From: Coriobacteriia bacterium
GTDB lineage: Bacteria > Actinomycetota > Coriobacteriia > Anaerosomatales > PALSA-660
Assembly (NCBI GenBank): GCA_025361335.1
Contig: JANYAK010000022.1
Location: 21,737-85,736 of the forward strand
Direction: 5' to 3'
Length of the DNA stretch: 64,000 nt
The notes under the pieces were generated by a model. That model was not told where the DNA came from. It saw only the letters and a program-made list of their open reading frames with translations, and searched no databases. The position numbers and the translations under genes were made by a program. How positions within the stretch are numbered: the stretch's first letter is position 1; each line of letters begins with the position of its first letter. This document shows, one piece after another, positions 37,665-50,983 of this stretch.

Positions 37665-37807
37665 CGATCAGTCTCTCTCCTCCGCAGGCTCCTGACGTGC
37701 CGGCCACCTGGCACCCCTAACACCGCGACCACGATAGCACGACCGGCTGAGTGGACCGGGCCTGCGGCGGAGGCCCGCCCGCCTCGACGCGCGCGCCCCC
37801 GCGCGCC

Positions 37808-37813
37808 TATAGT
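37808..37813 (+). promoter_or_regulatory. -10-like TATAGT upstream of the methyltransferase gene
   Basis: GCGCGCCTATAGTGAAGC lies in the divergent gap 37665..37843. Confidence 0.25.
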
Positions 37814-37894
37814 GAAGCAAGCGCGGGAGAAGCGGCCCCGCCGATGTCCCACCGCCGGTCTGCGACGACGGCTGTCCCTGACGAACGGAACGGG

Positions 37895-38635
37895 ATGGAT
37901 CCGGCCTACCTCGCCTCGTTCGGCGACACGGAAGACAACCACTGGTGGTTCAGAGCCAGGCGCGAGATCGTCGTCGACCAGCTGCGCCGATCCCTGCCCC
38001 GTGACGACATCGACTTGCTGGACGTCGGATGCGGCACCGGGGGGACGCTCGCCTACTTCAGCGCGGAGTTGCCGCGCGCACGCTGTCGGGGGATCGAGCC
38101 GGACCCTGCGGCACGCGCTCGCTGCCTGGACCGCGGTCTGGACGTGCTCGAGGGCACCGCGACACCCATGCCGGTGGCCTCCACCTCCCAGGACGCCGTC
38201 ATCGCCCTTGACGTGATCGAGCACATCGAGCACGACGAAGCCGCGGCGCGGGAGCTGGCGCGCTCCCTTCGGCCGGGCGGGATCGCGCTCGTCACGGTGC
38301 CGGCATACATGTGGATGTGGGGACCGCACGACGAGCTGAACCACCATCGGCGACGCTACGTGCGCAGCGAGGTCGAGCGTCTCATGTCGGACGCGGACCT
38401 CGAGATCGAGTTCTCCACGTACTTCAACACGCTGCTCTTCCCGTTGGGGGTGGTCCAGCGGGCGGCGGAGAGGGTCACGGGGCGGCATGCAGCGACAGAG
38501 AAGGCCCCCCTCACCGCGATCAACGCCGCGCTGCACGCCATCTTCGAGATGGAGCGCCCGCTGCTCAGGCGCATGCAGCTCCCATGGGGCGTCTCCATCC
38601 TCGTCGTCGCTCGGAAGGGGCCTTCCGGCCTGTGA
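37895..38635 (+). CDS. Class I SAM-dependent methyltransferase
   Basis: DNHWWFRAR N-terminal motif, SAM motif LLDVGCGTGG, and DVIEHIEHD. Start is ATG 37895 or 37844. Confidence 0.75.
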   Translation: MDPAYLASFGDTEDNHWWFRARREIVVDQLRRSLPRDDIDLLDVGCGTGGTLAYFSAELPRARCRGIEPDPAARARCLDRGLDVLEGTATPMPVASTSQDAVIALDVIEHIEHDEAAARELARSLRPGGIALVTVPAYMWMWGPHDELNHHRRRYVRSEVERLMSDADLEIEFSTYFNTLLFPLGVVQRAAERVTGRHAATEKAPLTAINAALHAIFEMERPLLRRMQLPWGVSILVVARKGPSGL

Positions 38636-39897: not shown

Positions 39898-40881
39898 CTA
39901 GACGACGATCGGTCGCGTCACCTTGTTGGACTTCAGCGCGAGCGTGGTCAGTGTCGCCCCCGCCAGCGTGAACGCCCACCCGGCCGCGATCCAGACAGAG
40001 CCGGGAAGTCCGCCGGCCCTCGGAACGAGGGCCAGGAAGAGCTGGAGCCACAGGACGTGCGAGACATACACGCCGATCAGGTAGTCGCTTCCCCAAGCCA
40101 ACCGACCCACGCCGAGCCAAGTGACTCCCGATGCGGCACCCCACAGCAGGACGAACGCGCCGATCGACCAGAGGACGGTCTGCACTGTGATCGACAGCGG
40201 TCTCGTCAGGTCGCCGTAGAGAACGCCCACCGTCCCAGCGGCGAGCACCGACACGGGGAACGCCGCGCGCGCCAACAGGCCCGGGGGCCGCATCTCGCCC
40301 AACGCGCGCAGCTCCATCCCGCCCAGGTACACTGCGAACCACCGCGGCGCGAGGATGAAGTGCTGTACCGGACCGGTGTAGATCTCCCTGAGCGGTGCGA
40401 ACTGGTACAGCGCGAGCGTCAGCAGGATACAGGCCCCGATCGTGATTCTCCGCTGAATGCTGTTGTGCACGAGCAGCTCCGCGGCCACCGCGCAGTACAG
40501 CAGCAGCGGCAGCACCCACAGGATCTCGTTCGCTCCGGCGAAGAACACCACCCGGAATGCGTTGGGCAGGAACGGGGGACCGCCGATGAGCAGGTTGCGC
40601 TGCCCCCAAACGAGATACACGACGGTCCATGTGGCATAGGGAACGCCGAGCCTCACGAGCCGCTTGCGGAGCCACGCTGGTCCGCGGTCCCCCACGCCAC
40701 CATGCAGGTAGCCCGAGGCCGCGATGAAGAAGAACAGCGCCCACAAGGGTGCAGCAGTCATGAATGCGCCCAGACGGCCACCCGCGCCCGCCGAGACGTG
40801 GTGAAGCACGATCGCGGCGGCTGCGACGTACTTCAGACCGTCCAGAGTGACATTCCTCGGCGCAGCGGTCGCTTCCGGCAT
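39898..40881 (-). CDS. Acyltransferase family 3 (AT3) membrane O-acyltransferase
   Basis: LDGLKYVAAAAIVLHH N-terminal AT3-like signature and about 10 TM helices. Confidence 0.75.
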   Translation of the reverse strand: MPEATAAPRNVTLDGLKYVAAAAIVLHHVSAGAGGRLGAFMTAAPLWALFFFIAASGYLHGGVGDRGPAWLRKRLVRLGVPYATWTVVYLVWGQRNLLIGGPPFLPNAFRVVFFAGANEILWVLPLLLYCAVAAELLVHNSIQRRITIGACILLTLALYQFAPLREIYTGPVQHFILAPRWFAVYLGGMELRALGEMRPPGLLARAAFPVSVLAAGTVGVLYGDLTRPLSITVQTVLWSIGAFVLLWGAASGVTWLGVGRLAWGSDYLIGVYVSHVLWLQLFLALVPRAGGLPGSVWIAAGWAFTLAGATLTTLALKSNKVTRPIVV

Positions 40882-40897: not shown

Positions 40898-42706
40898 CTA
40901 CGCTCGAGGCTCGTCGTCGGAGAAGAGGCCCATGATCGCGTCCCTCTCCTCCTGCGGCAGGTAGGGATACTGGTCGTCTAGCGAGGGCGACTCGAACGTC
41001 CCGTCCTCGCGGCGCCGCGACACGATCTTCGGGCGCTTCTCCTGCGAGAATGAGACGTTCACCTCGCAGAGCCACGGGGCGTCGTCCTCCATGACGGCTG
41101 CCAACCCTTCGTCCAGGTCCGCATTCGTCTTGAACAGCCGATACCCGAGACCGTACGCCGCCGCGAGTGAGTCGAACCGCGGGTTGCTGACGCCCGATCC
41201 TGGGTGACACCCCACGAACCGTCCCCCGAAGAACGCCGTCTGCGTCGCTCGGATCGTCTCGTAGCCACCGTTGTTGAGCACGAAGATCTTCACGTTGAGT
41301 CGGTTGTGGCCGATCGTCAGGAGCTCCTGGATGTTGAGTTGCACGCTGCCGTCGCCGGTGACCACTACGGTGCGCGCCCCGTCCCGCGCGATGCACGCCC
41401 CGACCGCCGCCGGCAGGTCCCACCCCATCGCGCCGAAGCCGTAGTTCGTGATGACCCTTTGGCCGGGCTTCACCGCGAACGAATGGTGGATGGAAACCGC
41501 GTCCGAGCCGTTGCCGGTCAACACCACTTCTCCGGGTCCCATCGCCCTCGAGAGTTCTGCGGCCAGGACGTAGCTGTTCACGTGGTCCGCGTCTTCGAAG
41601 TAGTCGCTCGTCACGATCGGGTAGTCGCGTTTCCACCGGGTGACGGCATCGAGCCAGCGCTCGTCGAACGCGAAGCTTCTCCGTGGGACGTCCTCGACGA
41701 ACCGCTCCATGAACCACTTGACGTCGGCCAGAACCGCATGGTCCGCCACGAAGTGCGGCTTGCGCATCTCCTCGAGTTCGATGTTGACCATGACCCGCTT
41801 CGCCTTCGGGGCGAAGCCGCTGGTATCGAAGCCGACCGCGGTGACCGCCATGCTCGCGCCGAGGCACAGCAGGAGGTCCGCGTTCTGCAGGGTGAAGTTC
41901 GCTCTACGCTGGCCTGTGGGACCGAATCTGCCCAGGTAGAGGGGGTGCTCCTCGGGAAGTAGGTCCATCCCGCCCATCGTGGCCACGACAGGACAGCCGA
42001 CGTGCTCGACGAACGCCGTGAACGCCGCTTCCGCATGCCCGAGATGGATGCCGTCACCGCAGACGATCACCGGCCGTCTCGCATGCCGGAGGAGGTCGGC
42101 TACCTCGGCGATCCCTTCCGGGCGATCCAGCGCCGGATCGGGCTCCTGCGCGGGCGCGTCGGCTGCCGCGGCGGCGAGCGCTTCGTCGATGTCGCCGGCC
42201 TGCACGTCCAGGGGGATGTTCAGCCAGACGGGGCCCGGTCGCCCTGCCGTGGCGACGCGGATCGCGTGCGCCAGCTCGGCGGGGACGTCCTCGGAACGCA
42301 TCACGGTCTTCGCGTACTTCGTCACGGGCTGCCCCATGCTGACGATGTCGATCTCCTGGTGACCGGTCTGGCGATGCTTCGAGTAGTCCGCGATCAGGTC
42401 GGTGCGGACCTGACCCGAGATGACGAGCATCGGGACGGAATCCACCCAGGCGCCGGCTACCGCCGACAGCGCGTTCGTGCTTCCAGGACCGCTGGTGACG
42501 AGACACACACCTATGCCGCCCGTGACTCGGGCGTACGCCTCGGCGGCGATCGCGCAGGCCTGCTCGTGAGCATTGCACCAGTACTTGACGTCTGGGTGAC
42601 GCCCCAGCGCGTCCAGCAGGAACATGATGCCGCCGCCCGACACCGTGAAGACGTCCCGCACTCCGCGGGATGCGAGGTTCTCGATGACGTAGTCCGCAAC
42701 GATCAT
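40898..42706 (-). CDS. Thiamine-diphosphate enzyme, acetolactate-synthase large-subunit/YerE-like (paralogue 1)
   Basis: ORF trimmed to ATG 42706 (ATGA overlap with the upstream stop). NAHEQACAIAAEAYARVTG, SGPGSTNALSAVAGAWVDSVPMLVISGQV, and C-terminal ThDP fold GDGSVQLNIQEL. Confidence 0.85.
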   Translation of the reverse strand: MIVADYVIENLASRGVRDVFTVSGGGIMFLLDALGRHPDVKYWCNAHEQACAIAAEAYARVTGGIGVCLVTSGPGSTNALSAVAGAWVDSVPMLVISGQVRTDLIADYSKHRQTGHQEIDIVSMGQPVTKYAKTVMRSEDVPAELAHAIRVATAGRPGPVWLNIPLDVQAGDIDEALAAAAADAPAQEPDPALDRPEGIAEVADLLRHARRPVIVCGDGIHLGHAEAAFTAFVEHVGCPVVATMGGMDLLPEEHPLYLGRFGPTGQRRANFTLQNADLLLCLGASMAVTAVGFDTSGFAPKAKRVMVNIELEEMRKPHFVADHAVLADVKWFMERFVEDVPRRSFAFDERWLDAVTRWKRDYPIVTSDYFEDADHVNSYVLAAELSRAMGPGEVVLTGNGSDAVSIHHSFAVKPGQRVITNYGFGAMGWDLPAAVGACIARDGARTVVVTGDGSVQLNIQELLTIGHNRLNVKIFVLNNGGYETIRATQTAFFGGRFVGCHPGSGVSNPRFDSLAAAYGLGYRLFKTNADLDEGLAAVMEDDAPWLCEVNVSFSQEKRPKIVSRRREDGTFESPSLDDQYPYLPQEERDAIMGLFSDDEPRA

Positions 42707-43788
42707 TCCGGTGGCTTCCTCTCGGCCGAGGCAGTCATGGTACGCCATGCGGCGGTCCGACGGATGCCGTCCTCGAGCGTGACCGCCGCGGCCAGCCCCA
42801 ACTCCTCGGCGGCCCGCGACGTGTCAGGGACGTATCGCTGAGGCAGGACTCCCGATGTAGGCCTCTGTGCGACGTCCACCCGCAATGCGGGGTCGATGAC
42901 GCGGCCCACGGTCTCAGCCAGATCGAGGATGCTGACCTCCTTGTCGGAGCCGACGTTGTAGGGGCGAGCCGGCGCGCCACGCAGGAGCACCGTCCAGAGC
43001 CACCACGCGAGATCGGCAGCGTACAGGTAGGAGCGCATCGGCGTCCCGTCGCCCGTGATCCGGATCGTCTCGCCGGCCATCGCGTCCCGAATGAAGTTGC
43101 CGACCGCATACCCGGCGTCCATCGGCAGGTGCGGCCCCACGAAGGCGAACAGACGCGCGATCTTCGTCTCGAGTCCACTCTCCTGGTGGGCGGCGCAGCA
43201 CAGGAACTCCGCGGCCCGCTTGCCGTGAGCGTAGGCCGCCGTGGCGTCCTGAGGCGGCGGAGCCATGGGCAGGTCCTCGGAAACGCGGGCGCACTCCGCC
43301 GGCTGCCTGCCGTAGACGGCTCCGGAGCTCGTGTACAGGACGCTCCTCACGCCGCGGGACGTCGCGAAGTCCAGAACGCGGCGGGTCCCCTCGACCGCCG
43401 TGTCGAACTCGAGCGACGGCTTGTGAGCGGACGCCTCGGTGTTCGTCTCCGTGGCCATGTGGAGCACGTGCGTGAAGGGGCCTTCCGGGAAGCGGAACGA
43501 CCGGATATCGCCCTCCAGCAGGGTGACGACGCCCTCCCGCGCGAGGTGCGGCGCTCGCGCTGCCGCCCGGGCGGGATCGCGTGAGAGCACGACTGCCTCC
43601 ACCCCGAGGTCCAGCGCGTCGTTTGCCCACACGAGACTCTCGAGGACCCAGCCACCCACGAACCCCGTGCCGCCCGTGATGAAGAGACGGCATCCGCGCA
43701 GGTCGTCCCAAAGGCCCCGGCCGCGCTCCAGAACGTTGTCCAAGTCCGCAGCGAGGGGATTCGAGCGCCTGTCCGCCGCGTCACCCAT
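42703..43788 (-). CDS. NAD-dependent epimerase/dehydratase (extended SDR)
   Basis: ORF trimmed to ATG 43788. LFITGGTGFVGGWV Rossmann, AAYAHGKRAAE (YxxxK). Confidence 0.8.
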   Translation of the reverse strand: MGDAADRRSNPLAADLDNVLERGRGLWDDLRGCRLFITGGTGFVGGWVLESLVWANDALDLGVEAVVLSRDPARAAARAPHLAREGVVTLLEGDIRSFRFPEGPFTHVLHMATETNTEASAHKPSLEFDTAVEGTRRVLDFATSRGVRSVLYTSSGAVYGRQPAECARVSEDLPMAPPPQDATAAYAHGKRAAEFLCCAAHQESGLETKIARLFAFVGPHLPMDAGYAVGNFIRDAMAGETIRITGDGTPMRSYLYAADLAWWLWTVLLRGAPARPYNVGSDKEVSILDLAETVGRVIDPALRVDVAQRPTSGVLPQRYVPDTSRAAEELGLAAAVTLEDGIRRTAAWRTMTASAERKPPE

Positions 43789-44779
43789 CCGACGCCACCT
43801 CCTCGACCGCTCGCCCATCGAACAGAAGACGGAGCACCTCACACCCCTCGTCGAGAGTCGGAAGACGGACTCCCGAGGTGGCGGCCCCGGCGGTCTCGGC
43901 GAAGAACGACTCGAGCTCGCGCACGTAGGTCGCTTCGGTGTCGAACAGGACGGGATCGGCGATGTCCGGACCGCCGCCCTCTCCCGTCAGCGCAAAGGTG
44001 CCAGCGGCGATGTCGCACTCGAGCACCGCTGTCGTTCCCACGATACGGATCCTGCGTCGCGTCTTCTTCTCCAGGTAGTCCATGTGCACGGTGCAGGTGA
44101 ACCCGTTCGTGAAGGAGTAGACGGCGTCGAACACGTCCGGTGCCGCGATGGGCAGGGCGCCCGTGTGCGCGGTGCGCGTGCACCACTCGATCGGCTGCCC
44201 GAAGAGCATGCGCATGTAGTCGACCTCGTGGGAGAGATCGAGCGCCACGCCTCCGCCTCGATCCGAGGAGGCGCTGTACATGTCCTCGAGCGGACGGTCC
44301 GGGCGCCAGTCGGGGAGCCACTGGCCGACTTCGATCCGGGCGAACAGCGGCGTCCCGAGCGTCCCCGCCGCGAGAACGTCGGCGACCCGGCTCAAGACCG
44401 GGAGGAAGCGCAGGTTGTAGGCGACCCGCGCTACGAGCCCGGCCTCGCGGACCTCGGCGAGCAGGAGCGACAGGTCGCTCGTGAGGGCCGGGGCCACGGG
44501 CTTCTCGATCAGCACGTGTGCACCGGCCGCGACGAGTTCGCGGGTCGTGCCGACGTGCTTGGAGGTGTCGTTCGCCACGACGGCCACGTCCGGAGGATCG
44601 GCGGGGAGGGTGGCGATCGGGTGGACTCGCGGGTCCTCGAACGCGTCCACGGTCGAGACGTCCCGGGTCGTCCACAGCAGGACTTCCGAGACTCCGAGTG
44701 CCAGGAGGTTGCGGGTGTGCCGCTGAGCGATGGAACCGCTTCCGGCGACCGTCACGCGCTCCGGGACCTGCGACCTCAT
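43781..44779 (-). CDS. Gfo/Idh/MocA-family oxidoreductase
   Basis: N-terminal VTVAGSGSIAQRHTRNL Rossmann, LIEKPVA motif, and a C-terminal alpha/beta domain. ATGA overlap with the SDR stop. Confidence 0.8.
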   Translation of the reverse strand: MRSQVPERVTVAGSGSIAQRHTRNLLALGVSEVLLWTTRDVSTVDAFEDPRVHPIATLPADPPDVAVVANDTSKHVGTTRELVAAGAHVLIEKPVAPALTSDLSLLLAEVREAGLVARVAYNLRFLPVLSRVADVLAAGTLGTPLFARIEVGQWLPDWRPDRPLEDMYSASSDRGGGVALDLSHEVDYMRMLFGQPIEWCTRTAHTGALPIAAPDVFDAVYSFTNGFTCTVHMDYLEKKTRRRIRIVGTTAVLECDIAAGTFALTGEGGGPDIADPVLFDTEATYVRELESFFAETAGAATSGVRLPTLDEGCEVLRLLFDGRAVEEVASDG

Positions 44780-45540
44780 CGCGCCGACCAGCCGCCGTCG
44801 ACGATGAGGTTGTGGCCTGTCACGTAGGCGCCGGCGTCGCAGGCGAGGAAGACGACCGCACCCACGATGTCCCGCGGTTGGGCCATGCGCCCAAGGGGCG
44901 TGAGCGCCTCGTACCTCTGCCTGAACGAGTCCGGCTGGCGGTCCTCGACTCCCCCCGGCGAGACGCAGTTGCAGCGCACACCCGCGGGGCCGAAGTACGT
45001 GGCGAGCAGGCGCGTGATGCTGACGATGCCGCCCTTGATGGCCGCGTACGCGCTCGGCATCGTCATGTCCGTGCCTTCGTACACCTCGTAGCTCGGGCCC
45101 ACGACACCGTAGATCGAGGCCAGGTTGACGATCGAGCCGCCTCCGGAGGCGCTCATGAGGCGCGCGGCCGCACGAGATGTGGCGAAGTAGCCGCCCAGAT
45201 GACTATCTACATTGGCGAGCCAGGACGCGTACTCCTCGCTCTCGAGCGGCGCGCCCCAATCGGCCGTACGCGGGTAGGCGCAGTTGACGAGGATGTCGAG
45301 CCGACCGGCTCGCGTCACGACCTGGTCGAGCGCCCGGACCACGGACTCCTCGGAACTCACATCGAGGACCACGCTGGGATCCAGCCCCTCGAGTCCCGAC
45401 ACGTCCGCAGCCCATACCTCCGCTCCCGCCGCGGCCAGGCCCGCGCAGATCTCGCGGCCAAGCAGCCCGGCCGCCCCCGTCACGACGGCGACTCGGCCGG
45501 CGCACGAGAAGAGCGTGTCGTAGGACTCGGACGCGGTCAT
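44776..45540 (-). CDS. Short-chain dehydrogenase/reductase (classical SDR)
   Basis: VAVVTGAAGLLG (TGxxxGxG), NLASIYG, SAYAAIKGG (YxxxK). ATGA overlap with the neuC stop. Confidence 0.85.
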   Translation of the reverse strand: MTASESYDTLFSCAGRVAVVTGAAGLLGREICAGLAAAGAEVWAADVSGLEGLDPSVVLDVSSEESVVRALDQVVTRAGRLDILVNCAYPRTADWGAPLESEEYASWLANVDSHLGGYFATSRAAARLMSASGGGSIVNLASIYGVVGPSYEVYEGTDMTMPSAYAAIKGGIVSITRLLATYFGPAGVRCNCVSPGGVEDRQPDSFRQRYEALTPLGRMAQPRDIVGAVVFLACDAGAYVTGHNLIVDGGWSAR

Positions 45541-46736
45541 CTATGACTCCCCTCTGCCGGCGCGGCGCCGGCGGGCTCCTCGAATTGGAGGTCGACGAAA
45601 GTCGCGCGCCTCGCGCGCAACAGCAGGTCTTCGTCGGCCAGGAAGTCGGCGATGTGCTCCGCGGTGTGCCCTTCGCCGTACGGGTTGAGCGCGACCTTCG
45701 AGAAGGCCCGGTGCTCGGGCGAGGTCGCGTGGCGAACGGCAGCCACGATGGCTGTCGCGTCGGCACCCGCGTGCACGACGCTCGGCGGCCGCTCGCGGCC
45801 TTCCTGCCGAGTCCCGACATCAACGCTCGGCACGCCCAGCACGGGCACCTCGTGGAGCCCGCTCGACGAGTTGCCCACGACTGCCGCGGCGTTGCGCGCG
45901 GCCGACAGGTAGCCGCGACTACCGAGCGACGAAACCAGGGCAGCTCGACCTGGATGGTCCTGGATCCAGCGCTCGAGACTCGATGCGACGGCTTCGCCGC
46001 CCGCGTCGTCGTTCGGCGCGGTGAACAGCACCTTGAACTCCGTGAGCTCATCCAGCGCGCGCATCAGCACGTCCAGTTCGTGTGCCGAGTCCCCGCGCGT
46101 CACGGGGTGGAACGTGACGAGGAGGGTGTCCGAGTCGCACGCGACCCCGAACTCCTTCAAGAACTCGTCCGGGCCCATGAGCGGAGTGCCGGCGACGTTG
46201 TCGACCGCGAGCGCGCCGACGTTGAACACCGTCCACGCGGGCGCGCCCATCTGCACGATGCGTCTGCGGTAGGTTTCCGCCACGGGGAAGTGCAGCGTCG
46301 CCATCTTCGTGATCGCATGTCGCAGCGGGTCGTCGACCGCCCCCGCGGTGACCTCGCCGCCGTGGATGTGTGCCACCGGGACGTCGAGCAGGACGGCGGC
46401 TCCGGCCGCGGCGAACGTCTCGAACCTGTCACCCAGAAGAACCACGACGTCGGCCCCTGAGCGGTCGATGGCGTCAGCCAGCAGCGTGAGCGCCGCGCCG
46501 GCTCGGCCAGCCATCTGGAGCCGATCGCCACCGCCCGCGGGGAGCTCTACCCGGGCGAAGATCGGCAGCGCATCGGCTTCGATCTCGTCCACGGTGCTGT
46601 GCTCCGCGGCGAGGTGCGAGCCCGTCACGATGAGCCGCAACTCGAACCGCGGATCCCCGTCGAGCTTCACGAGGAGCGGATGCAGAAGACCGTAGTCTGC
46701 CCGACTCGTGGTCACGACTGCGGCCCGGACGGTCAC
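45537..46736 (-). CDS. neuC: Hydrolysing UDP/GDP-N-acetylhexosamine 2-epimerase (NeuC/LegG type)
   Basis: GTG 46736 (GTGA overlap with the neuB stop). AAVVTTSRADYGLLHPL, VVLLGDRFE, VAHIHGGEVT, GNSSSGLHE. Confidence 0.85.
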   Translation of the reverse strand: MTVRAAVVTTSRADYGLLHPLLVKLDGDPRFELRLIVTGSHLAAEHSTVDEIEADALPIFARVELPAGGGDRLQMAGRAGAALTLLADAIDRSGADVVVLLGDRFETFAAAGAAVLLDVPVAHIHGGEVTAGAVDDPLRHAITKMATLHFPVAETYRRRIVQMGAPAWTVFNVGALAVDNVAGTPLMGPDEFLKEFGVACDSDTLLVTFHPVTRGDSAHELDVLMRALDELTEFKVLFTAPNDDAGGEAVASSLERWIQDHPGRAALVSSLGSRGYLSAARNAAAVVGNSSSGLHEVPVLGVPSVDVGTRQEGRERPPSVVHAGADATAIVAAVRHATSPEHRAFSKVALNPYGEGHTAEHIADFLADEDLLLRARRATFVDLQFEEPAGAAPAEGSHR

Positions 46737-47734
46737 AGTTCGATCATCTCGTCCGGCGCGAACCGGCGGCGAGCCGGTGTGCCCAGCACGGAGTCCCACA
46801 GCATGGGGCTGAGTCCGAGCCCGGGCCGCTTCGTGGTGATGTTGGCCTCCGCGAGGACTTCACCGGCCTGTATCTCGCGCGACGCCACGATGCTCTTCCG
46901 GACCACGCCGACGTTTCGTTCCTCCGAGGGTGTCCGACGCTTGTGGCCCTCGCCCAGGGCCCGCGACACGTTCCTCGTCGCGGAGACCAGCGCCGATAGC
47001 TCCGCGGGCTCTATGCTCGCGGCGTGATCGGGACCGGGGAGACTCCTGTCCAGCGTGAAGTGCTTCTCGATGACCACAGCCCCCAAAGCGACGGCGGCGA
47101 TCGAGACCTCGATGCCTCGCGTGTGGTCCGAGTATCCGACCCGCAGGCCGAACGCGGACTCCATCTCGGCCATGGCGCGCAGATCGACCTCGTCCATCGG
47201 CGCCGGGTACTCGGTGGTGCAATGCAGAAGGACCACGTTCCCGCGCGCCAGGCCGGACTCCTCGAGCGCTTCCAGCGCGGCGCCGATCTCGTCGAGCGTC
47301 GCCATCCCGGTCGAGAGCAGCACGCTGTCCGCGTGCCGCGCCACCGCGCGCAGGACGGGAAGATCAGTGATCTCCCCCGAAGCGACCTTGAACTCGCGGA
47401 CACCCAGTCTCGCGAGCATCTCGACGCTCTCCACGTCGAACGCCGACGAGAGGAATCGGACGCCGCGCTGCTCGCACCGCTCCATCAACTTCGCGTGCGC
47501 CTGCTCGTCCAATCGCAGCGACGCCAGCATCTCCAGCTGGCTTCCCGGGCCCGTGCTTCGCGCCTGGTAGTCCGCTTTTCCCGCGTTCTCCGCAACCAGC
47601 AGGGCTGGATCGAAGGTCTGGAACTTCACGGCGTCAGCGCCGGCTTCCGCAGCCACGTCCACCATCAGGAGGGCGCGCTCGAGCGATCCGTTGTGGTTCA
47701 CGCCGGCCTCGGCGATGATCCTCGGTCCGCTCAC
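46733..47734 (-). CDS. neuB: Nonulosonic acid synthase (NeuB/LegI type)
   Basis: GTG 47734 (GTGA overlap with the upstream stop). IIAEAGVNHNGSLERALLMVDVAAEAGADAVKFQTF, GYSDHTRG, and a C-terminal SAF-like domain (RKSIVASREIQAGEVL). Confidence 0.9.
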   Translation of the reverse strand: MSGPRIIAEAGVNHNGSLERALLMVDVAAEAGADAVKFQTFDPALLVAENAGKADYQARSTGPGSQLEMLASLRLDEQAHAKLMERCEQRGVRFLSSAFDVESVEMLARLGVREFKVASGEITDLPVLRAVARHADSVLLSTGMATLDEIGAALEALEESGLARGNVVLLHCTTEYPAPMDEVDLRAMAEMESAFGLRVGYSDHTRGIEVSIAAVALGAVVIEKHFTLDRSLPGPDHAASIEPAELSALVSATRNVSRALGEGHKRRTPSEERNVGVVRKSIVASREIQAGEVLAEANITTKRPGLGLSPMLWDSVLGTPARRRFAPDEMIEL

Positions 47735-48795
47735 CTGATCCCCAGACGGTCGAGCGCGTTCTGAAGCTCCTCGAGTTGTCCCACGTCCAGCCAAGCGCGC
47801 TCGGGGATCGGGTAGACGCCGACGTGGCGCCCCGACTCCAGGGCTCGCCTGATCAGGTCCGTGGCGTCGGTGGGACCGTCAGTGCCGATGCCCTTGAGTA
47901 CCTCGGGTTCCATCACATAGATCCCGGTCGACACCAGCAGGTCGAAGCGGGGCTTCTCCTGGAGAGCGTCGAGCGTTCCGCCATCTCCGAGTTGACACAC
48001 CCCGTACGGCAAGACGAGGTGCTTCATCGAGGCGACGATGGTGATCACGCTCTCGGTTTCGCGATGATGGTCGATGACGTCGGCGAACTCGATGTCGACG
48101 ATGGTGTCGCAGTTGGCCAGGATGAACGTCTGGTCGAGCGCGGAGGCCATGAGCGATAGGCTCCCGGCCGTGCCGAGCGGTCTGTCCTCGTCGAAGAACG
48201 TTATCTCGTACGGCAGAGACTCGTCGCTGAAGTAGGCGCGGATGAGGCTCGCCTTGAAGTTCAGCGATACGAGGAAATTCGTGCATCCCTGCTCGTAGAA
48301 GCGGTCCATGATCAACTGCAGGACGGGCTGGTCGCCGACGGGCATCAGGGGTTTGGGCAGGATCCGCGTGAACGGCTCGAGCCGCGTTCCCTGGCCGCCC
48401 GCCATGATCGCCACCGGGACGCCCGCTGGACGACGGGGGACGACCGGTCCACCGAAGACGTCGGCCCACCACGCGGCATCGACGACCTTGCGGTCACCGT
48501 CGAGGACCGGCATGCAGTGGACCTGCCGAGAGAGCAGTTCCGCCCGCAGGCGTTCCTCGGAGACGCCCTGCTCGACCCAAGCGGGCTCCACGTTCATCGC
48601 CTGGGTGATGGGATCGTCCAGTCCCCTACCCGCGAGGATGTATCGGCGGACGTCGCCGTCGGTGAGCACCCCCAGGAGCAGGCCGTCGTCGCCGGCCACG
48701 AAGAGGATCTTCCCAGCGGTCTCATCGAGGACGCGCAGGGCCTCGACTATCGTCGTGACTGGGGAGACGAGAATCGCCGACAGGTCTGGATGCAC
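47731..48795 (-). CDS. CBS-pair + sugar-1-phosphate nucleotidyltransferase (PtmE-like)
   Basis: N-terminal tandem CBS-like region (ILFVAGDDGLLLGVLTDGDVRR, MPVLDGDRKVV) followed by IMAGGQGTRLEPFTRILPKPLMPV. GTG start. Confidence 0.85.
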   Translation of the reverse strand: MHPDLSAILVSPVTTIVEALRVLDETAGKILFVAGDDGLLLGVLTDGDVRRYILAGRGLDDPITQAMNVEPAWVEQGVSEERLRAELLSRQVHCMPVLDGDRKVVDAAWWADVFGGPVVPRRPAGVPVAIMAGGQGTRLEPFTRILPKPLMPVGDQPVLQLIMDRFYEQGCTNFLVSLNFKASLIRAYFSDESLPYEITFFDEDRPLGTAGSLSLMASALDQTFILANCDTIVDIEFADVIDHHRETESVITIVASMKHLVLPYGVCQLGDGGTLDALQEKPRFDLLVSTGIYVMEPEVLKGIGTDGPTDATDLIRRALESGRHVGVYPIPERAWLDVGQLEELQNALDRLGIR

Positions 48796-48798
48796 GTG

Positions 48799-49986
48799 TC
48801 ATCTCCTGGCCAAGGATCGGATCGCGCCGACGACGCGATCGACGTCATCGGGTCGCAGACTGCTGCTGCACGGCAGGTTCAGCACCCGCTCCCAGTACCA
48901 TACCGCACGTTCGGGGCCGACCACAGTGCACCCTGCGTACGGTGGCTGCATGTGGATGGGCAGCCACAAGGGACGGGTCTGGATCCCCGCCTCCGCGAGA
49001 CGGGTCATGAGGCTCTCGCGATCCATCCCGAACTCGGCCGGCTCTACCAGCACGGAATAGAACCAGCAGTTGGGGTCGGTGCCGCCGGGAGGCCCGACGA
49101 ACGTCAGACCGGGGACCCCCGCGAGACCCTCCGAGTACCGTGCGCGGTTCCGGCGCTTCGTCTCGATGAACCCCTGCAGCTGCTCCATCTGGGCGACGCC
49201 GATGGCGGCGGTGACGTTGCTCATCGCGTAGTTGAACCCGACTGCGCCGTGCACGTACCTGACCGGGTCGTCCTTGGCCTGGTGGAACAGATAGCGGGCC
49301 CTCCAAGCGACGTCGTCGTCGTCCGTGACGAGCATGCCGCCGCCGCCCGTCGTGATGATCTTGTTGCCGTTGAACGAGAGAGCACCCGAGAGCCCTAGGG
49401 TCCCGGTCGCGCGCCCGGCCAGGGAGCCCACGGTGTACGTCGATCCGATGCTCTCCGTCGCGTCCTCCACCACGGCCAGCTCGTGGCGTCGCGCGATCGC
49501 GAGCAGGCGCTCCATGTCGCACGGATCGCCGAACACGTGCACGGGCATCATGGCCTTCACCAAGCGCCCCGTCGCAGTGTCGACGACTCGCCGTGACGAC
49601 GCGTCCCAAGCGCGTTCGAGATAGTCCTCGAGCGCATCTGGGTCGAGGCCGAGACGGTCGTCGCAGCCGATGAGGACGGGCTCGGCGCCGCAGTAGCGGA
49701 CGGCGTTCGCGGAGGCGATGAACGTGACCGTCGGCACGATGACCGAGTCCCCGGGGCCGACGCCGGCGGTCAGGAGCGCGACGTGCAGGGCAGCCGTACC
49801 GCTTGCGCAGGCGACGGCATGGCGCGCCCCGGTCAGTTCGCAGACGGCTGCCTCGAACCGGCCGACATACTCCCCCGCGGCGGACAACCAACCGCTGCTG
49901 AGGCAGTCTTCCACGTACCGGCCCTCATTGCCGCCGACATTCGGGACGGACAAGGGCAGGAAGGGCGCTGGGACCGGATCAGACAT
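48799..49986 (-). CDS. legC: DegT/DnrJ/EryC1-family PLP aminotransferase (LegC-like)
   Basis: LPLSVPNVGGNEGRYVEDCL, CASGTAALHVAL, and PLP-lysine context ALSFNGNKIITTGGGGML. Confidence 0.8.
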   Translation of the reverse strand: MSDPVPAPFLPLSVPNVGGNEGRYVEDCLSSGWLSAAGEYVGRFEAAVCELTGARHAVACASGTAALHVALLTAGVGPGDSVIVPTVTFIASANAVRYCGAEPVLIGCDDRLGLDPDALEDYLERAWDASSRRVVDTATGRLVKAMMPVHVFGDPCDMERLLAIARRHELAVVEDATESIGSTYTVGSLAGRATGTLGLSGALSFNGNKIITTGGGGMLVTDDDDVAWRARYLFHQAKDDPVRYVHGAVGFNYAMSNVTAAIGVAQMEQLQGFIETKRRNRARYSEGLAGVPGLTFVGPPGGTDPNCWFYSVLVEPAEFGMDRESLMTRLAEAGIQTRPLWLPIHMQPPYAGCTVVGPERAVWYWERVLNLPCSSSLRPDDVDRVVGAIRSLARR

Positions 49987-50983
49987 TGAAGATCTCCCAC
50001 TTGTACCGTGCGAGATTGGCGGGGTCGCGGAACCACGCCACCGTCCGCTCCAGCCCCTCTCTCAGATCGACCGTGGGGGCCCACCCGGTCAGCGAGCCGA
50101 TCAGCGAGTTGTCCGCGAGCAGCCTCTCGACCTCGCTCTTCTCCGGCCGGAGCCGCTCCTCGGCGCCGACGATCTCGGTACCGGGGCGGACCATCTCTAT
50201 CAGCATCGAGGCGAGCGCGCCGACGGATATCTCGCTCCCCGATCCTATGTTGACCTCCCTGCCGACCGCGGCATCGCATCCGGCCAGAGCGATGAGCCCG
50301 GCGCAGGTGTCCTCCACGTAGGTGAGGTCGCGCGTCGGGTGCAGCGACCCGAGATGGATCTCCGCGGCGTCGTTGAGGAGCTGGGTGACGATCGTCGGTA
50401 TCACGGCCCTCGCCGACTGCCGCGGCCCGTACGTGTTGAAGGGCCGCGCGGTGACGACGGGGAGATCGAAGGAGCGATGGAACGACTCCGCCATCTTGTC
50501 GGCGGAGATCTTCGACGCGGAGTACGGTGACTGCCCCTGAACGGGATGCGTCTCGTCGATCGGGACGTACTTCGCCGTTCCGTAGACCTCCGACGTCGAC
50601 GTGACCAACACCCGCTCGAGACCGAGGTCTCGAGCCGCCTGCAGGACGTTGAGCGTGCCCTTCACGTTCGTGTCGATGTAGGACTCGGGGGCGTTGTACG
50701 AATGTGGGATGCCGATCAGAGCGGCCAAGTGGAGCACGGCATCGACGCCTTCAAGGCTCTTCCGTACGAAGACGGAGTCCCGCACGTCACCCATGACGAC
50801 CTCGACCGCCGTCAGCGACTCGCGAGGGATCGTGTCGAGCCACCCCCACGTTCCGAACGAGTTGTAGTGGACGAACGCACGCACATCCGCGCCGCGCGAG
50901 AGGAGCGCCTCCACGAGGTGGCTGCCGATGAACCCGTCCGCACCGGTCACGGTGATCTTCTTGCCCTGCACTTCCACGCGCAC
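49979..50983 (-). CDS. legB: NAD-dependent hexosamine-nucleotide 4,6-dehydratase (LegB-like)
   Basis: ITVTGADGFIGSHL, HYNSFGTWGWLD, HLAALIGIPHSY, STSEVYGTAKYVPIDE, SPYSASKISAD, RPFNTYGPRQSARAVIPTI. This matches the LegB pattern as I remember it. Confidence 0.8.
   Translation of the reverse strand: MRVEVQGKKITVTGADGFIGSHLVEALLSRGADVRAFVHYNSFGTWGWLDTIPRESLTAVEVVMGDVRDSVFVRKSLEGVDAVLHLAALIGIPHSYNAPESYIDTNVKGTLNVLQAARDLGLERVLVTSTSEVYGTAKYVPIDETHPVQGQSPYSASKISADKMAESFHRSFDLPVVTARPFNTYGPRQSARAVIPTIVTQLLNDAAEIHLGSLHPTRDLTYVEDTCAGLIALAGCDAAVGREVNIGSGSEISVGALASMLIEMVRPGTEIVGAEERLRPEKSEVERLLADNSLIGSLTGWAPTVDLREGLERTVAWFRDPANLARYKWEIFNV

What the first reader, a model, noticed from the sequence alone, without database searches (positions are those of the whole stretch)
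42703..50983. Legionaminic-acid-like nonulosonate operon lacking the N-acyltransferase and CMP-activating enzyme but extended by extra redox enzymes
Seen: eight tightly coupled minus-strand genes have ATGA/GTGA or 8-nt overlaps at six of the seven junctions. They encode LegB-like 4,6-dehydratase, LegC-like aminotransferase, CBS+nucleotidyltransferase, NeuB-type synthase, hydrolysing NeuC-type 2-epimerase, classical SDR, Gfo/Idh/MocA oxidoreductase and an extended-SDR epimerase/dehydratase. Known: the Campylobacter GDP-GlcNAc-dependent legionaminic acid route uses LegB, LegC, LegH (hexapeptide N-acetyltransferase), LegG, LegI, LegF (CMP-synthetase) and PtmE (CBS-containing guanylyltransferase). 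As I recall, an SDR-family PtmA and a partner PtmF supply the precursor. Gap: I find no hexapeptide-repeat acyltransferase and no CMP-NulO synthetase anywhere in the 64 kb. Inference: either these steps are encoded elsewhere, or the product is a non-canonical nonulosonate. It might be differently N-acylated, epimerised by the extra SDR, or further elaborated by the attached ThDP enzyme.
Basis: partly seen in the sequence, partly recalled or inferred. Interest (0 to 1): 0.7.

Follow-up and report, generated by a model that had tools for sequence, protein, structure and literature searches.

The report
Legionaminic-type operon feeding a branched-sugar enzyme
A bacterial gene cluster that makes a sialic-acid-like nine-carbon sugar acid lacks the enzyme that normally activates it and is instead joined to a thiamine-dependent carbon-carbon-bond-forming enzyme, which suggests that the acid becomes a long side branch on another sugar, a kind of cell-surface sugar not yet described.

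Summary
Eight minus-strand genes (LegB, LegC, CBS-nucleotidyltransferase, NeuB, NeuC, SDR, Gfo/Idh/MocA, extended SDR) overlap at six of seven junctions. The coupled array continues into a ThDP enzyme and two AT3 acyltransferases.

No LegH-type or LegF-type gene occurs in any frame of the 64 kb, nor in 3.4 kb beyond the right end.

The interpretation needs revision:
- The SDR and Gfo genes are PtmA/PtmF-type companions of Leg clusters, not extras.
- The extended SDR and ThDP enzyme are a YerF/YerE-like pair; the ThDP enzyme's best solved relative is JanthE.
- RfbH lies in the window, and DdhA/DdhB-like genes lie just outside it.
- An Actinobacteria MAG carries DdhB-RfbH-LegB-LegC-PtmE-NeuB-NeuC-PtmA-PtmF-xSDR-ThDP-AT3-AT3 on one strand, also without legH or legF, with dN/dS 0.16-0.36 against the window.

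Across phyla, particular clades of this ThDP enzyme sit next to NeuB-family genes. Only 1 of 32 such loci has a CMP-synthetase domain, against 46 of 74 ordinary NeuB loci.

Best explanation (confidence about 0.5): the Leg-type 2-keto acid is not CMP-activated. It serves as the alpha-keto-acid donor for a YerE-like carboligase that builds a long acyl-branched 3,6-dideoxyhexose. Main rival (about 0.3): two independent pathways, with legF and legH encoded elsewhere.

The parts
51029..52531 (-). ManC, mannose-1-phosphate guanylyltransferase/PMI. It lies directly upstream of LegB on the same strand.
   Evidence: TIGR01479 at 446 bits against a cut-off of 373; Pfam NTP_transferase + MannoseP_isomer.
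49979..50971 (-). LegB-type NAD-dependent 4,6-dehydratase (alternative GTG starts up to 50983).
   Evidence: TIGR04180 at 480 bits against a cut-off of 475. An AGGAG ribosome-binding site precedes the GTG at 50971. 73% identical to the L004 protein and 78% to the L168 protein.
48799..49986 (-). LegC-type PLP aminotransferase.
   Evidence: TIGR04181 at 432 bits against a cut-off of 420. Overlaps LegB by 8 nt.
47731..48795 (-). PtmE-like CBS + sugar-1-phosphate nucleotidyltransferase.
   Evidence: Pfam CBS + NTP_transferase. Homologues occur in 51 of 80 NeuB loci, including C. jejuni.
46733..47734 (-). NeuB/LegI-type nonulosonate synthase. It condenses PEP with an aldose to give a 3-deoxy-2-ulosonic acid.
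   Evidence: TIGR03569 at 450 bits against a cut-off of 400. The GTGA overlap with PtmE leaves no room for legH. The exact protein is found on 4 metagenome contigs.
45537..46736 (-). NeuC/LegG-type hydrolysing 2-epimerase.
   Evidence: TIGR03568 at 368 bits against a cut-off of 236. GTGA overlap with NeuB.
44776..45540 (-). PtmA-like classical SDR.
   Evidence: adh_short_C2. NF050062 (PtmA) scores 142 bits, below its cut-off of 350. Syntenic homologues occur in 17 of 80 NeuB loci and in ThDP loci L087, L092, L124, L125 and L150.
43781..44779 (-). PtmF-like Gfo/Idh/MocA oxidoreductase.
   Evidence: Pfam GFO_IDH_MocA + C3 domain. Syntenic homologues occur in 13 of 80 NeuB loci, including C. jejuni.
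42703..43788 (-). Extended SDR (xSDR), proposed YerF-like ketoreductase partner of ThDP#1.
   Evidence: Pfam Epimerase/GDP_Man_Dehyd. Its nearest solved structures are NDP-sugar SDRs. It overlaps ThDP#1 by ATGA. A homologue lies immediately upstream of the ThDP gene in L004, L168, L170-172, L084, L085, L087, L088, L090-092 and others.
40898..42706 (-). ThDP#1, a three-domain acetolactate-synthase-like carboligase of the YerE-like class that accepts ketones.
   Evidence: TPP_enzyme_N/M/C domains. It scores below every ALS cut-off. Its best solved relative is JanthE (8rph), E 2.6e-103, aligned over residues 3-589. Its clade is always next to NeuB-family genes.
39898..40881 (-). AT3a, a membrane acyltransferase (Acyl_transf_3), probably an O-acetyltransferase.
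   Evidence: Pfam PF01757. It has 6 TM-like segments. An AT3 gene follows the ThDP gene in L004 (47% identity), L092 and L168.
38696..39880 (-). AT3b, a second Acyl_transf_3 membrane acyltransferase.
   Evidence: Pfam PF01757 on the C-terminal part of ORF 38696-40744. The gene call on L001 is 394 aa.
37751..38635 (+). SAM-dependent methyltransferase, convergent with the operon. It keeps the same position in L168.
   Evidence: Methyltransf_11/23/25. The same neighbour is seen in L001 and L168.
60508..61836 (-). RfbH (E1), an NDP-6-deoxy-4-hexulose 3-dehydratase that makes the 4-keto-3,6-dideoxyhexose acceptor.
   Evidence: NF011936 at 726 bits against a cut-off of 423. 67% identical to the L004 RfbH that sits directly upstream of xSDR-ThDP. 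Start inferred at ATG 61836 behind AAGGAG.
58790..60508 (-). ThDP#2, a second YerE-like carboligase (34% identical to ThDP#1). Its start overlaps the RfbH stop codon.
   Evidence: TPP_enzyme_N/M/C domains. Its best solved relative is 5ahk at 431 bits. The two ThDP proteins were compared; start inferred.
57742..58689 (-). GtrB-like GT2 with C-terminal TM helices, a probable polyprenyl-phosphate sugar transferase.
   Evidence: Glycos_transf_2. TM-like segments at residues 355-399 of the long ORF. Homologues of 32-35% identity sit beside RfbH/xSDR in L085, L086, L090, L092 and L150.
62017..63885 (+). Polytopic membrane protein (10 TM-like segments, no Pfam hit), a candidate GT-C-type transferase.
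   Evidence: A 22%-identical homologue lies in ThDP locus L086. The exact protein on L164-L167 links the window to the DdhA/DdhB-like genes outside it.
21925..23133 (-). GDP-mannose 4,6-dehydratase, a possible alternative source of a 4-keto-6-deoxy acceptor precursor.
   Evidence: TIGR01472 at 439 bits against a cut-off of 415.

Best explanation
The operon is the donor arm and coupling module of a pathway for an acyl-branched sugar. It is not a CMP-nonulosonate pathway.

**Proposed steps**
1. Donor arm. The PtmE-like, LegB, LegC, NeuC and NeuB enzymes, perhaps with the PtmA/PtmF-like pair, convert a GDP-HexNAc into a nine-carbon 3-deoxy-2-ulosonic acid. This is a legionaminic-type acid. Without LegH it would keep a free amine at position 7. 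The enzyme families are shown; the chemistry is inferred from the known Leg route.
2. No CMP activation. The acid is not activated with CMP; no synthetase gene is present.
3. Coupling. The acid's 2-keto-acid group is the donor substrate of the YerE-like ThDP enzyme (ThDP#1). That enzyme decarboxylates it and joins C2 to the 4-keto group of an NDP-4-keto-3,6-dideoxyhexose. The acceptor is made by the DdhA/DdhB-like enzymes just outside the window and by RfbH inside it. The overlapping extended SDR then reduces the new side-chain ketone, as YerF does. This step is inferred from gene context and from published YerE-like chemistry.
4. Predicted product. An NDP-linked 3,6-dideoxyhexose carrying an eight-carbon amino-polyol branch, 14 carbons in all.
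5. Transfer and tailoring. The product is probably passed to a polyprenyl phosphate by the GtrB-like GT2 and placed on a surface glycan by one of the GT-C-like membrane proteins. It is probably O-acylated by the AT3 enzymes and perhaps methylated. This step is inferred.
For: **Anatomy of the window**
- The coupled array runs LegB through NeuC, PtmA, PtmF, xSDR (ATGA overlap) and ThDP#1 to two AT3 genes.
- ThDP#1's best solved relative is JanthE (8rph), E 2.6e-103 over the full length. JanthE is a YerE-like enzyme that accepts ketones and takes long alpha-keto-acid donors.
- ThDP#2's best solved relative is 5ahk.
- RfbH scores 726 bits against a cut-off of 423.
- DdhA- and DdhB-like genes (64% and 60% identical to those of L004) lie 2-3 kb beyond the window end.

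**No CMP-synthetase**
- None is found in six frames of the window or in the extra flank.

**Relatives**
- L168, an Actinobacteria MAG with a ThDP protein 73% identical to ThDP#1, has DdhB-RfbH-LegB-LegC-PtmE-NeuB-NeuC-PtmA-PtmF-xSDR-ThDP-AT3-AT3 on one strand, with no legH and no legF.
- dN/dS between the window and L168 is 0.16-0.36 for these genes.
- L004, L092, L170 and L171 show the same module with Leg-type, non-aminated or Pse-type donor arms.

**Survey of 80 metagenome loci chosen only by ThDP similarity**
- The usual context is DdhA-DdhB-RfbH-reductase-ThDP.
- A NeuB-family gene lies within 4.3 kb of the ThDP gene in 22 loci, on the same strand in 21.
- In L124 and L125 the NeuB gene lies between the reductase and ThDP genes. 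In L096 the ThDP gene lies between legH and neuB.
- The LegF HMM finds nothing in any of the 80 loci.

**Clade pattern**
- In a clustering of 93 ThDP sequences, clades 1-5 and 7 have a NeuB gene next door wherever enough flank is present. Source DNA in these clades ranges from 29% to 68% GC, and the loci whose source is named come from Bacteroides, Clostridiales, Melainabacteria, Spirochaetia and Actinomycetota.
- Clades 6, 8, 9 and 11 almost never have one.

**Statistics**
- LegF is present in 0 of 28 ThDP-linked NeuB loci against 46 of 74 other NeuB loci; Fisher p = 8e-10.

**Other ThDP-NeuB loci**
- Some carry a HAD phosphatase or a SIS isomerase, as KDO-type ulosonic acid pathways do, again with no CMP-synthetase.

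**Precedent**
- Steitz et al. [quoted passage not shown] A YerF-like reduction follows, giving erwiniose, caryophyllose and gastriose.
- NeuB products belong to the same chemical class.
Against: - No glycan carrying such a sugar has been described, and no enzyme here has been assayed. Everything rests on gene context.
- One close relative, L172 (ThDP 64% identical to ThDP#1), has a CTP_transf_3 domain fused to a PseG-like domain between the ThDP and NeuB genes. CMP activation can therefore coexist with the module.
- The Leg enzymes are ordinary. They score above the curated cut-offs, and NeuB is 60% identical to NeuB proteins in clusters that do carry legF.
- About 38% of ordinary NeuB loci also lack legF within 10 kb.
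- In C. jejuni, legH lies away from the leg locus (bioRxiv 10.64898/2026.04.20.719630).
- RfbH-xSDR-ThDP alone would suffice for a yersiniose-type sugar with pyruvate as donor.
- Nonulosonic acids exist mostly in ring form, which masks the keto group.
- No E3-type reductase partner for RfbH was found.
- The role of the second ThDP enzyme is unresolved.
Confidence: 0.5

Rival explanations
1. Two independent pathways sit side by side in one glycan island. One is an ordinary CMP-legionaminic acid pathway whose legF, and an N-acetyltransferase, are encoded elsewhere in the genome. The other is an ordinary yersiniose-type pathway (DdhA/DdhB, RfbH, YerE-like, YerF-like) that uses pyruvate as donor. 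The tight coupling only reflects co-expression of sugars destined for the same polymer.
For: - The Leg enzymes are canonical by curated models.
- 28 of 74 ordinary NeuB loci lack legF within 10 kb.
- In C. jejuni, legH is unlinked to the leg locus.
- L172 carries a CTP_transf_3 domain inside the module.
- L004 keeps legH.
- RfbH followed by a ThDP enzyme is the classical yersiniose layout.
- Ulosonic acids have so far been seen only in CMP-activated form.
Against: - It does not explain why only 1 of 32 ThDP-linked NeuB loci has a CMP-synthetase domain, against 46 of 74 others.
- It does not explain why NeuB presence follows particular ThDP clades across unrelated phyla.
- It does not explain why NeuB and its phosphatase lie between the reductase and ThDP genes in L124 and L125, or why the ThDP gene lies between legH and neuB in L096.
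- No legF or legH is found in 67 kb of the source organism.
Confidence: 0.3
2. The ThDP enzyme does act on the NeuB product, but by different chemistry. One possibility is that the 2-keto group of the nonulosonic acid is the acceptor, as in acetolactate synthase, with pyruvate as donor. Another is that the enzyme decarboxylates the acid to an eight-carbon aldehyde that is then reduced by the extended SDR. Either way the product is a modified higher sugar, not a branched 3,6-dideoxyhexose.
For: - The NeuB-ThDP linkage and the lack of a CMP-synthetase are the same as for the best explanation.
- Enzymes of the acetolactate synthase family use alpha-keto acids as acceptors (established knowledge of the family).
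- L096 has a ThDP-NeuB module with no RfbH in 11.8 kb.
Against: - RfbH and DdhA/DdhB-like genes accompany the ThDP family in 34-35 of 80 loci and in L168, L170, L171 and L172. This points to a 4-keto-3,6-dideoxyhexose acceptor, as for YerE.
- A free modified acid would still need a nucleotide handle before transfer to a glycan.
Confidence: 0.1
3. The Leg part is a decaying remnant. Loss of legH and legF inactivated nonulosonate synthesis, and the remaining genes are drifting.
For: legH is cleanly missing relative to L004.
Against: - All genes are intact with coupled starts.
- The same arrangement without legH is kept in L168 at dS of about 1, with dN/dS of 0.16-0.36 for LegB, LegC, PtmE, NeuB, NeuC, PtmA and PtmF.
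Confidence: 0.03

Closest known systems
CMP-legionaminic acid pathway (Campylobacter jejuni LegB/C/H/G/I/F with PtmE/PtmA/PtmF; Plesiomonas shigelloides Leg cluster, PMC4481668)
   Same: LegB, LegC, NeuC/LegG, NeuB/LegI, a CBS-nucleotidyltransferase (PtmE-like), an SDR (PtmA-like) and a Gfo/Idh/MocA protein (PtmF-like) are all present. The first four score above curated cut-offs.
   Different: There is no LegH N-acetyltransferase and no LegF CMP-synthetase. The genes are translationally coupled to a YerF/YerE-like pair.
Yersiniose A pathway (DdhA, DdhB, E1/RfbH, YerE, YerF) and the long-branch variants erwiniose (ErwE/ErwF/ErwI), caryophyllose (MMAR_2331/2332) and gastriose (MyGE/MygF/MygI), from Steitz et al. 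2022, PMC9306805
   Same: - A ThDP carboligase of the acetolactate synthase type next to an NAD(P)H-dependent reductase.
- An RfbH and NDP-hexose 4,6-dehydratase arm that supplies the acceptor.
- An enzyme beside the carboligase that makes a gamma-hydroxy-alpha-keto acid.
   Different: The keto acid would be made by a PEP-dependent NeuB-family synthase fed by a whole Leg-type amino-sugar route, not by a pyruvate aldolase. This gives a nine-carbon, nitrogen-containing donor. No E3 reductase was seen. Two carboligase paralogues are present.
JanthE (PDB 8rph/8rpi/8rpj) and PpYerE (I recall that PDB 5ahk is this enzyme)
   Same: These are the best solved relatives of ThDP#1 (349 bits) and ThDP#2 (431 bits) respectively. 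JanthE accepts longer alpha-keto-acid donors and ketone acceptors (PMC12188165).
   Different: JanthE has a CDG ThDP-binding motif, whereas ThDP#1 has the usual GDG (alignment). JanthE's physiological substrates are unknown.
GtrA/GtrB/GtrC-type three-component glycan modification, and Lag-1-type O-acetylation of legionaminic acid (both from my own knowledge)
   Same: - A GT2 with C-terminal TM helices, large polytopic membrane proteins and, in relatives, GtrA_DPMS_TM genes.
- Acyl_transf_3 enzymes next to the sugar genes.
   Different: The donor sugar and the acceptor glycan are unknown. The link to the branched sugar is by gene position only.

Membership tests
CMP-legionaminic acid biosynthesis cluster | LegB-type NAD-dependent 4,6-dehydratase | tested here: met
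   TIGR04180 at 480 bits against a cut-off of 475.
CMP-legionaminic acid biosynthesis cluster | LegC-type aminotransferase | tested here: met
   TIGR04181 at 432 bits against a cut-off of 420.
CMP-legionaminic acid biosynthesis cluster | LegH-type N-acetyltransferase (PglD_N + hexapeptide repeats) | tested here: not met
   - No Pfam hit on any long ORF.
- HMM built from 48 LegH sequences against six frames: best E 0.18, on an unrelated Rossmann domain.
- DNA alignment with L004 shows the roughly 665-bp legH gene missing between PtmE and NeuB.
- It may still exist elsewhere in the genome.
CMP-legionaminic acid biosynthesis cluster | Hydrolysing 2-epimerase (LegG/NeuC) and nonulosonate synthase (LegI/NeuB) | tested here: met
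   TIGR03568 at 368 bits (cut-off 236) and TIGR03569 at 450 bits (cut-off 400).
CMP-legionaminic acid biosynthesis cluster | CMP-nonulosonate synthetase (LegF, CTP_transf_3) | tested here: not met
   - HMM built from 46 LegF sequences against six frames of the window: best E 5.1.
- None in the 3.4 kb beyond the window.
- The same HMM detects the divergent L172 domain at E 1e-19, so it is sensitive enough.
- The whole genome could not be searched.
CMP-legionaminic acid biosynthesis cluster | GDP-GlcNAc supply genes PtmE, PtmA and PtmF | tested here: inconclusive
   - The PtmE-like domain architecture is present.
- The PtmA model NF050062 scores 142 bits, below its cut-off of 350.
- All three have syntenic homologues of 25-29% identity in the C. 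jejuni locus L034.
YerE/YerF-type acyl-branched sugar pathway | ThDP-dependent carboligase of the acetolactate synthase type, closest to characterised YerE-like enzymes that accept ketones, and not a true acetolactate synthase | tested here: met
   - ThDP#1: the top PDB hit is JanthE, E 2.6e-103. It scores below all NCBIfam ALS cut-offs (360 bits against 538 for TIGR00118).
- ThDP#2: the top PDB hit is 5ahk.
YerE/YerF-type acyl-branched sugar pathway | Adjacent NAD(P)H-dependent reductase (YerF-like) | tested here: inconclusive
   - An extended SDR overlaps ThDP#1 by ATGA.
- A reductase of this type or of a second SDR type lies within 2.5 kb of the ThDP gene in 40 of 80 loci.
- No YerF sequence was available for direct comparison.
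YerE/YerF-type acyl-branched sugar pathway | Supply of NDP-4-keto-3,6-dideoxyhexose (nucleotidyltransferase, 4,6-dehydratase, E1 3-dehydratase, E3 reductase) | tested here: inconclusive
   - RfbH/E1 is present at 726 bits against a cut-off of 423.
- DdhA- and DdhB-like genes lie just outside the window.
- No E3-type iron-sulfur flavoprotein was found in the window.
YerE/YerF-type acyl-branched sugar pathway | A neighbouring enzyme that makes the alpha-keto-acid donor (a pyruvate aldolase in the erw, MMAR and Myg clusters) | tested here: inconclusive
   No aldolase is present. A NeuB-family synthase occupies that place, and its presence follows ThDP clades. The equivalence of the two is an inference.
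YerE/YerF-type acyl-branched sugar pathway | Demonstrated decarboxylative ligation onto a 4-keto sugar | not testable with these tools
   This needs an enzyme assay.

The most novel reading that the evidence does not exclude
Nonulosonic and related 3-deoxy-2-ulosonic acids made by NeuB-family synthases are used in many bacterial phyla as alpha-keto-acid donors for YerE-like ThDP carboligases, and not only as CMP-activated glycosyl donors. The products would be NDP-linked 3,6-dideoxyhexoses with long, sometimes nitrogen-containing, carbon branches; in this window the sugar would have 14 carbons. That would be a class of surface sugar, and a fate for sialic-acid-like molecules, not yet described.
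Probability: 0.5. Interest if true: 0.85.

Novelty: new variant of a known kind. Interest (0 to 1): 0.72.

Why it matters
- Sialic-acid-like sugars are thought to enter glycans only as CMP-activated donors. A second fate, as carbon donors for branched-sugar synthesis, would change how neuB-containing clusters are read in genomes. Many 'sialic acid' or 'legionaminic acid' predictions in gut Bacteroides, Clostridia and environmental Actinomycetota could be wrong.
- It would extend the published scheme for acyl-branched sugars from aldolase-derived donors of 4 to 8 carbons to synthase-derived amino-sugar acids of 9 carbons.
- It would predict new surface antigens.
- It would point to ThDP carboligases with unusually large, functionalised donors, which are of interest for biocatalysis.
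- The prediction can be tested directly with a few recombinant enzymes or by nucleotide-sugar mass spectrometry.

Tried and rejected
- **Promoter and terminator scan of 37.5-57.4 kb.** Nothing above the shuffled expectation, so operon ends could not be set this way.
- **Extending the left flank.** The cytochrome gene at 1647-2747 had no exact record, probably because the start codon is wrong.
- **First NeuB look-up.** The longest ORF failed for the same reason.
- **'Deletion scar' idea.**
  - The window's neuB start GTGAGCGGAC matches the legH start ATGAGCGGAC of L004 in 9 of 10 bases.
  - L168, which also lacks legH, starts neuB differently, with MTKP.
  - I therefore do not rely on it.
- **ThDP enzyme as phosphonopyruvate decarboxylase.** Rejected: it has all three domains and matches JanthE over its full length.
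- **ThDP enzyme as a true acetolactate synthase.** Rejected: it scores below all curated cut-offs and sits in a sugar-gene context.
- **CBS-nucleotidyltransferase as a substitute for LegF.** Rejected: it occurs in 51 of 80 NeuB loci, including loci that have legF.
- **NeuB as a Neu5Ac synthase.** Rejected: LegB and LegC are adjacent and above cut-off, and the closest NeuB relatives lie in Leg clusters.
- **Weak LegF HMM as the cause of the missing hits.** Rejected: it detects the divergent PseF-like domain of L172.
- **Pseudogenisation.** Rejected by dN/dS.
- **Left unused.** Structure prediction, fold search and the representative-library search, because they would not separate the leading explanations.

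Full report
**1. The observation**

The window has 65-72% GC throughout. A third-position GC screen picks out a nearly continuous run of minus-strand genes.
- LegB: TIGR04180, 480 bits against a cut-off of 475.
- LegC: TIGR04181, 432 against 420.
- A CBS + NTP_transferase protein.
- NeuB: TIGR03569, 450 against 400.
- Hydrolysing NeuC: TIGR03568, 368 against 236.
- A classical SDR.
- A Gfo/Idh/MocA oxidoreductase.
- An extended SDR.

Several starts had to be moved to the first start codon preceded by a ribosome-binding site. The corrected starts match independent gene calls on three metagenome contigs that encode identical proteins.

The junctions are an 8-nt overlap, a 3-nt gap, GTGA, GTGA, ATGA, ATGA and an 8-nt overlap. 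The count of six overlapping junctions out of seven is therefore right.

The extended SDR overlaps a 602-aa ThDP enzyme by ATGA. Two Acyl_transf_3 genes follow after short gaps. ManC lies about 50 nt upstream of LegB.

**2. The two missing genes**

Pfam scans of all long ORFs in the 64 kb found no hexapeptide acyltransferase and no CTP_transf_3 protein.

I took LegF and LegH sequences from related loci and built HMMs from 46 and 48 sequences. I searched every six-frame segment of the window with HMMER's filters off. The best E-values were 5.1 and 0.18, the latter on an unrelated Rossmann domain. The LegF model is sensitive enough: it finds a divergent PseF-like domain in locus L172 at E 1e-19.

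Metagenome contigs that carry the window's last gene at 100% identity extend 3.4 kb past the right end. They hold neither gene. The left end of the window is multihaem cytochromes, an NHL-repeat protein and Rex, which lie outside the glycan island.

**3. What the 'extra' genes are**

A scan of species-representative genomes with NeuB returned 80 loci. Counts across them:

| Gene | Loci of 80 |
|---|---|
| LegH | 50 (directly upstream of NeuB in 41) |
| LegF | 46 |
| PtmE-like CBS-nucleotidyltransferase | 51 |
| SDR homologue | 17 |
| Gfo/Idh/MocA homologue | 13 |

The C. jejuni locus reads neuB2-neuC2-ptmE-ptmF-legF-ptmA, and the window's SDR and Gfo proteins hit ptmA and ptmF there. The P. 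shigelloides Leg cluster lists the same proteins (PMC4481668). The SDR and Gfo genes are therefore normal members of Leg clusters.

The extended SDR and the ThDP enzyme are something else. ThDP#1's best solved relative is JanthE (8rph), E 2.6e-103 over residues 3-589. JanthE is a YerE-like enzyme that couples alpha-keto acids, including long ones, to ketones (PMC12188165). ThDP#1 scores below every curated acetolactate synthase cut-off.

**4. The other half of the system**

At 57.7-61.8 kb there is a second small operon:
- RfbH, the E1 3-dehydratase of 3,6-dideoxyhexose synthesis (NF011936, 726 bits against a cut-off of 423).
- A second ThDP enzyme whose start overlaps the RfbH stop codon. It is 34% identical to ThDP#1, and its best solved relative is 5ahk, which I recall as PpYerE.
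- A GT2 with C-terminal membrane helices, as in GtrB.

Just outside the window lie a 4,6-dehydratase and a nucleotidyltransferase. They are 60% and 64% identical to the DdhB- and DdhA-like genes of L004. Five proteins of 560-660 aa with 8-11 membrane segments and no Pfam hit are candidate GT-C transferases.

**5. Closest relatives**

- **L004** (Coriobacteriia MAG). Its proteins are 61-73% identical across LegB, LegC, PtmE, NeuB and NeuC. The order is LegB-LegC-PtmE-LegH-NeuB-NeuC-DdhA-DdhB-RfbH-xSDR-ThDP-AT3. A DNA alignment shows that the window differs by a clean absence of the roughly 665-bp legH gene between the PtmE stop and the NeuB start.
- **Homologue search.** A protein search with ThDP#1 shows that the nearest named relatives come from Actinobacteria/Actinomycetota MAGs.
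- **L168** (GCA_009668945.1; ThDP 73% identical). It has DdhB-RfbH-LegB-LegC-PtmE-NeuB-NeuC-PtmA-PtmF-xSDR-ThDP-AT3-AT3 on one strand. PtmE and NeuB overlap by ATGA, so there is no legH, and there is no legF.
- **Selection.** Between the window and L168, dS is about 1 and dN/dS is 0.16-0.36 for the Leg genes, xSDR, ThDP and RfbH. The arrangement without legH and legF is old and under purifying selection. It is not decaying.
- **L170.** It keeps the coupling module with a donor arm that lacks the aminotransferase.
- **L171.** It has Pse-type genes in place of Leg-type genes.

**6. Is the NeuB-ThDP link general?**

Six of the 80 NeuB-selected genome loci contain a homologue of ThDP#1. They come from a Coriobacteriia MAG, Bacteroides, Clostridiales, Spirochaetia, Melainabacteria and Lachnospiraceae. 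None has legF (Fisher p = 0.0045). Four share a private SDR family of about 300 aa that is found in no other locus, and several carry RfbH and DdhA/DdhB-like genes.

I then scanned metagenome contigs with an alignment of the ThDP proteins, so that selection did not depend on NeuB. In the 80 loci returned:
- The usual context is DdhA-DdhB-RfbH-(GtrB-like GT2)-reductase-ThDP. RfbH is present in 34 loci, and a reductase lies within 2.5 kb of the ThDP gene in 40.
- A NeuB-family gene is present in 22 loci, never more than 4.3 kb from the ThDP gene and on the same strand in 21.
- LegF is present in none.

The genes are interleaved in several loci:
- L124 and L125: xSDR-NeuB-HAD phosphatase-ThDP-PtmA-PtmF.
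- L096: LegB-LegC-NeuC-LegH-ThDP-NeuB.
- L092: the full DdhABC set, xSDR, ThDP, AT3 and the full Leg set.

Other loci add a SIS isomerase or a HAD phosphatase, as KDO-type pathways do.

I clustered 93 ThDP sequences by identity. The sequences that sit next to NeuB fall into particular clades, numbered 1-5 and 7, where every locus with enough flank has a NeuB gene. The remaining clades almost never have one. The NeuB-linked clades span source DNA of 29% to 68% GC.

**7. Interpretation**

Steitz et al. 2022 (PMC9306805) showed the following sequence for long acyl-branched sugars such as erwiniose, caryophyllose and gastriose:
1. An enzyme makes a gamma-hydroxy-alpha-keto acid of 4 to 8 carbons.
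2. A YerE-like ThDP enzyme decarboxylates it and joins it to CDP-4-keto-3,6-dideoxyglucose.
3. A YerF-like reductase finishes the branch.

NeuB products are gamma-hydroxy-alpha-keto acids too. The simplest account of the facts is that the Leg-type acid is the donor for ThDP#1 and is never CMP-activated. Those facts are the coupled operon, the clade-specific NeuB-ThDP linkage across phyla, the interleaved gene order, the constant RfbH arm, and the near-absence of CMP-synthetases (1 of 32 ThDP-linked NeuB loci, against 46 of 74 others).

The predicted product is an NDP-linked 3,6-dideoxyhexose with an eight-carbon amino-polyol branch. The loss of legH then reads as one more variation of a variable donor arm. 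Leg-type with LegH, Leg-type without LegH, non-aminated and Pse-type arms are all seen.

No paper in the searchable library mentions both YerE and NeuB. A recent review of these ThDP enzymes mentions no sialic-acid-type synthase.

**8. Caveats**

- All of this is gene context. No sugar of this kind is known.
- L172, a close relative, has a CTP_transf_3 domain fused to a PseG-like domain between the ThDP and NeuB genes. CMP activation can therefore coexist with the module, and the two-pathway reading cannot be dismissed.
- About 38% of ordinary NeuB loci lack legF within 10 kb, and C. jejuni keeps legH away from its leg genes.
- I could not search any whole genome for legF.
- No E3 partner for RfbH was found.
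- The division of labour between the two ThDP enzymes is open.
- The clade analysis is a UPGMA clustering, not a proper phylogeny.
- The loci are not fully independent samples.
- I put the donor model at about 0.5, the two-pathway rival at about 0.3, other ThDP chemistry on the NeuB product at about 0.1, and decay at about 0.03.

**9. Verdict**

The finding is real and more interesting than a simple 'genes encoded elsewhere' case. It is best filed as a new variant of the YerE/YerF acyl-branched-sugar pathway that has recruited a legionaminic-type nonulosonate route as its donor arm. It fails two defining tests for membership of the CMP-legionaminic acid pathway, because LegH and LegF are absent.

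Noticed in passing
window 57742-61836 (minus strand): A second small operon, RfbH-ThDP#2-GtrB-like GT2. The organism therefore has two YerE-like carboligases, only 34% identical to each other, and might make two different branched sugars or carry out two ligations.
   Followed up: partly
window 52614-54485, 54454-56427, 25094-26965, 34027-35703 (+), 62017-63885 (+): Five proteins of 560-660 aa with 8-11 membrane segments and no Pfam or NCBIfam hit. Two share an N-terminal motif (NGWW/YL..P.LGAPGV). Homologues of two of them occur in ThDP locus L086. They are probably GT-C-type glycosyltransferases from families not yet described.
   Followed up: partly
window 47734 (NeuB start) compared with L004:9363: The first ten bases of the window's neuB (GTGAGCGGAC) match the start of legH in L004 (ATGAGCGGAC) in 9 of 10 positions. 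This could mark a deletion that fused the 5' end of legH to neuB. L168, which also lacks legH, does not share it, so it may be chance.
   Followed up: partly
window 1647-6942: Multihaem c-type cytochromes (NapC/NirT-like, paired CXXCH), an NHL-repeat beta-propeller protein, a TPR protein and a Rex-type redox repressor border the glycan island. The closest relatives of the sugar genes are Actinomycetota MAGs, where multihaem cytochromes are not commonplace.
   Followed up: no
window 15002-18207: RmlA, RmlB and RmlD homologues are present, but I did not see an RmlC (3,5-epimerase) gene among the ORFs I scanned. Short ORFs were not all checked.
   Followed up: no
window 20939-23133: Two tandem Gmd-type genes, one above the GDP-mannose 4,6-dehydratase cut-off and one below it (possibly an Rmd-type reductase). 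Metagenome locus L113, which holds the RfbH most similar to the window's (68%), has the same Gmd-Gmd-ManC set beside its ThDP gene.
   Followed up: partly
L009:5384-17336 (uncultured Bacteroides MAG): One locus carries two ThDP carboligase genes and two NeuB/NeuC pairs, again without a CMP-synthetase. Two such loci also come from human gut metagenomes (L133, L161).
   Followed up: no
L172:11829-13499: A 556-aa fusion of a CTP_transf_3 domain and a PseG-like (Glyco_tran_28_C) domain sits between the ThDP and NeuB genes. In its N-terminal motif (PASSRSK) the usual arginine (PAR.GSK) is displaced by two residues. Whether the domain is active is unknown.
   Followed up: partly
L124:9096-9581, L125:6203-6679, L090:7146-7766: HAD-family phosphatase and SIS-domain isomerase genes accompany short NeuB-family genes next to ThDP carboligases. 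This suggests that KDO-like ulosonic acids made through phosphorylated intermediates also feed these enzymes.
   Followed up: partly
window 37751-38635 (+), and L168, L085, L124, L170: A SAM-dependent methyltransferase recurs beside the xSDR-ThDP module in several relatives. The R. palustris branched-sugar cluster described in PMC9306805 also has one.
   Followed up: no
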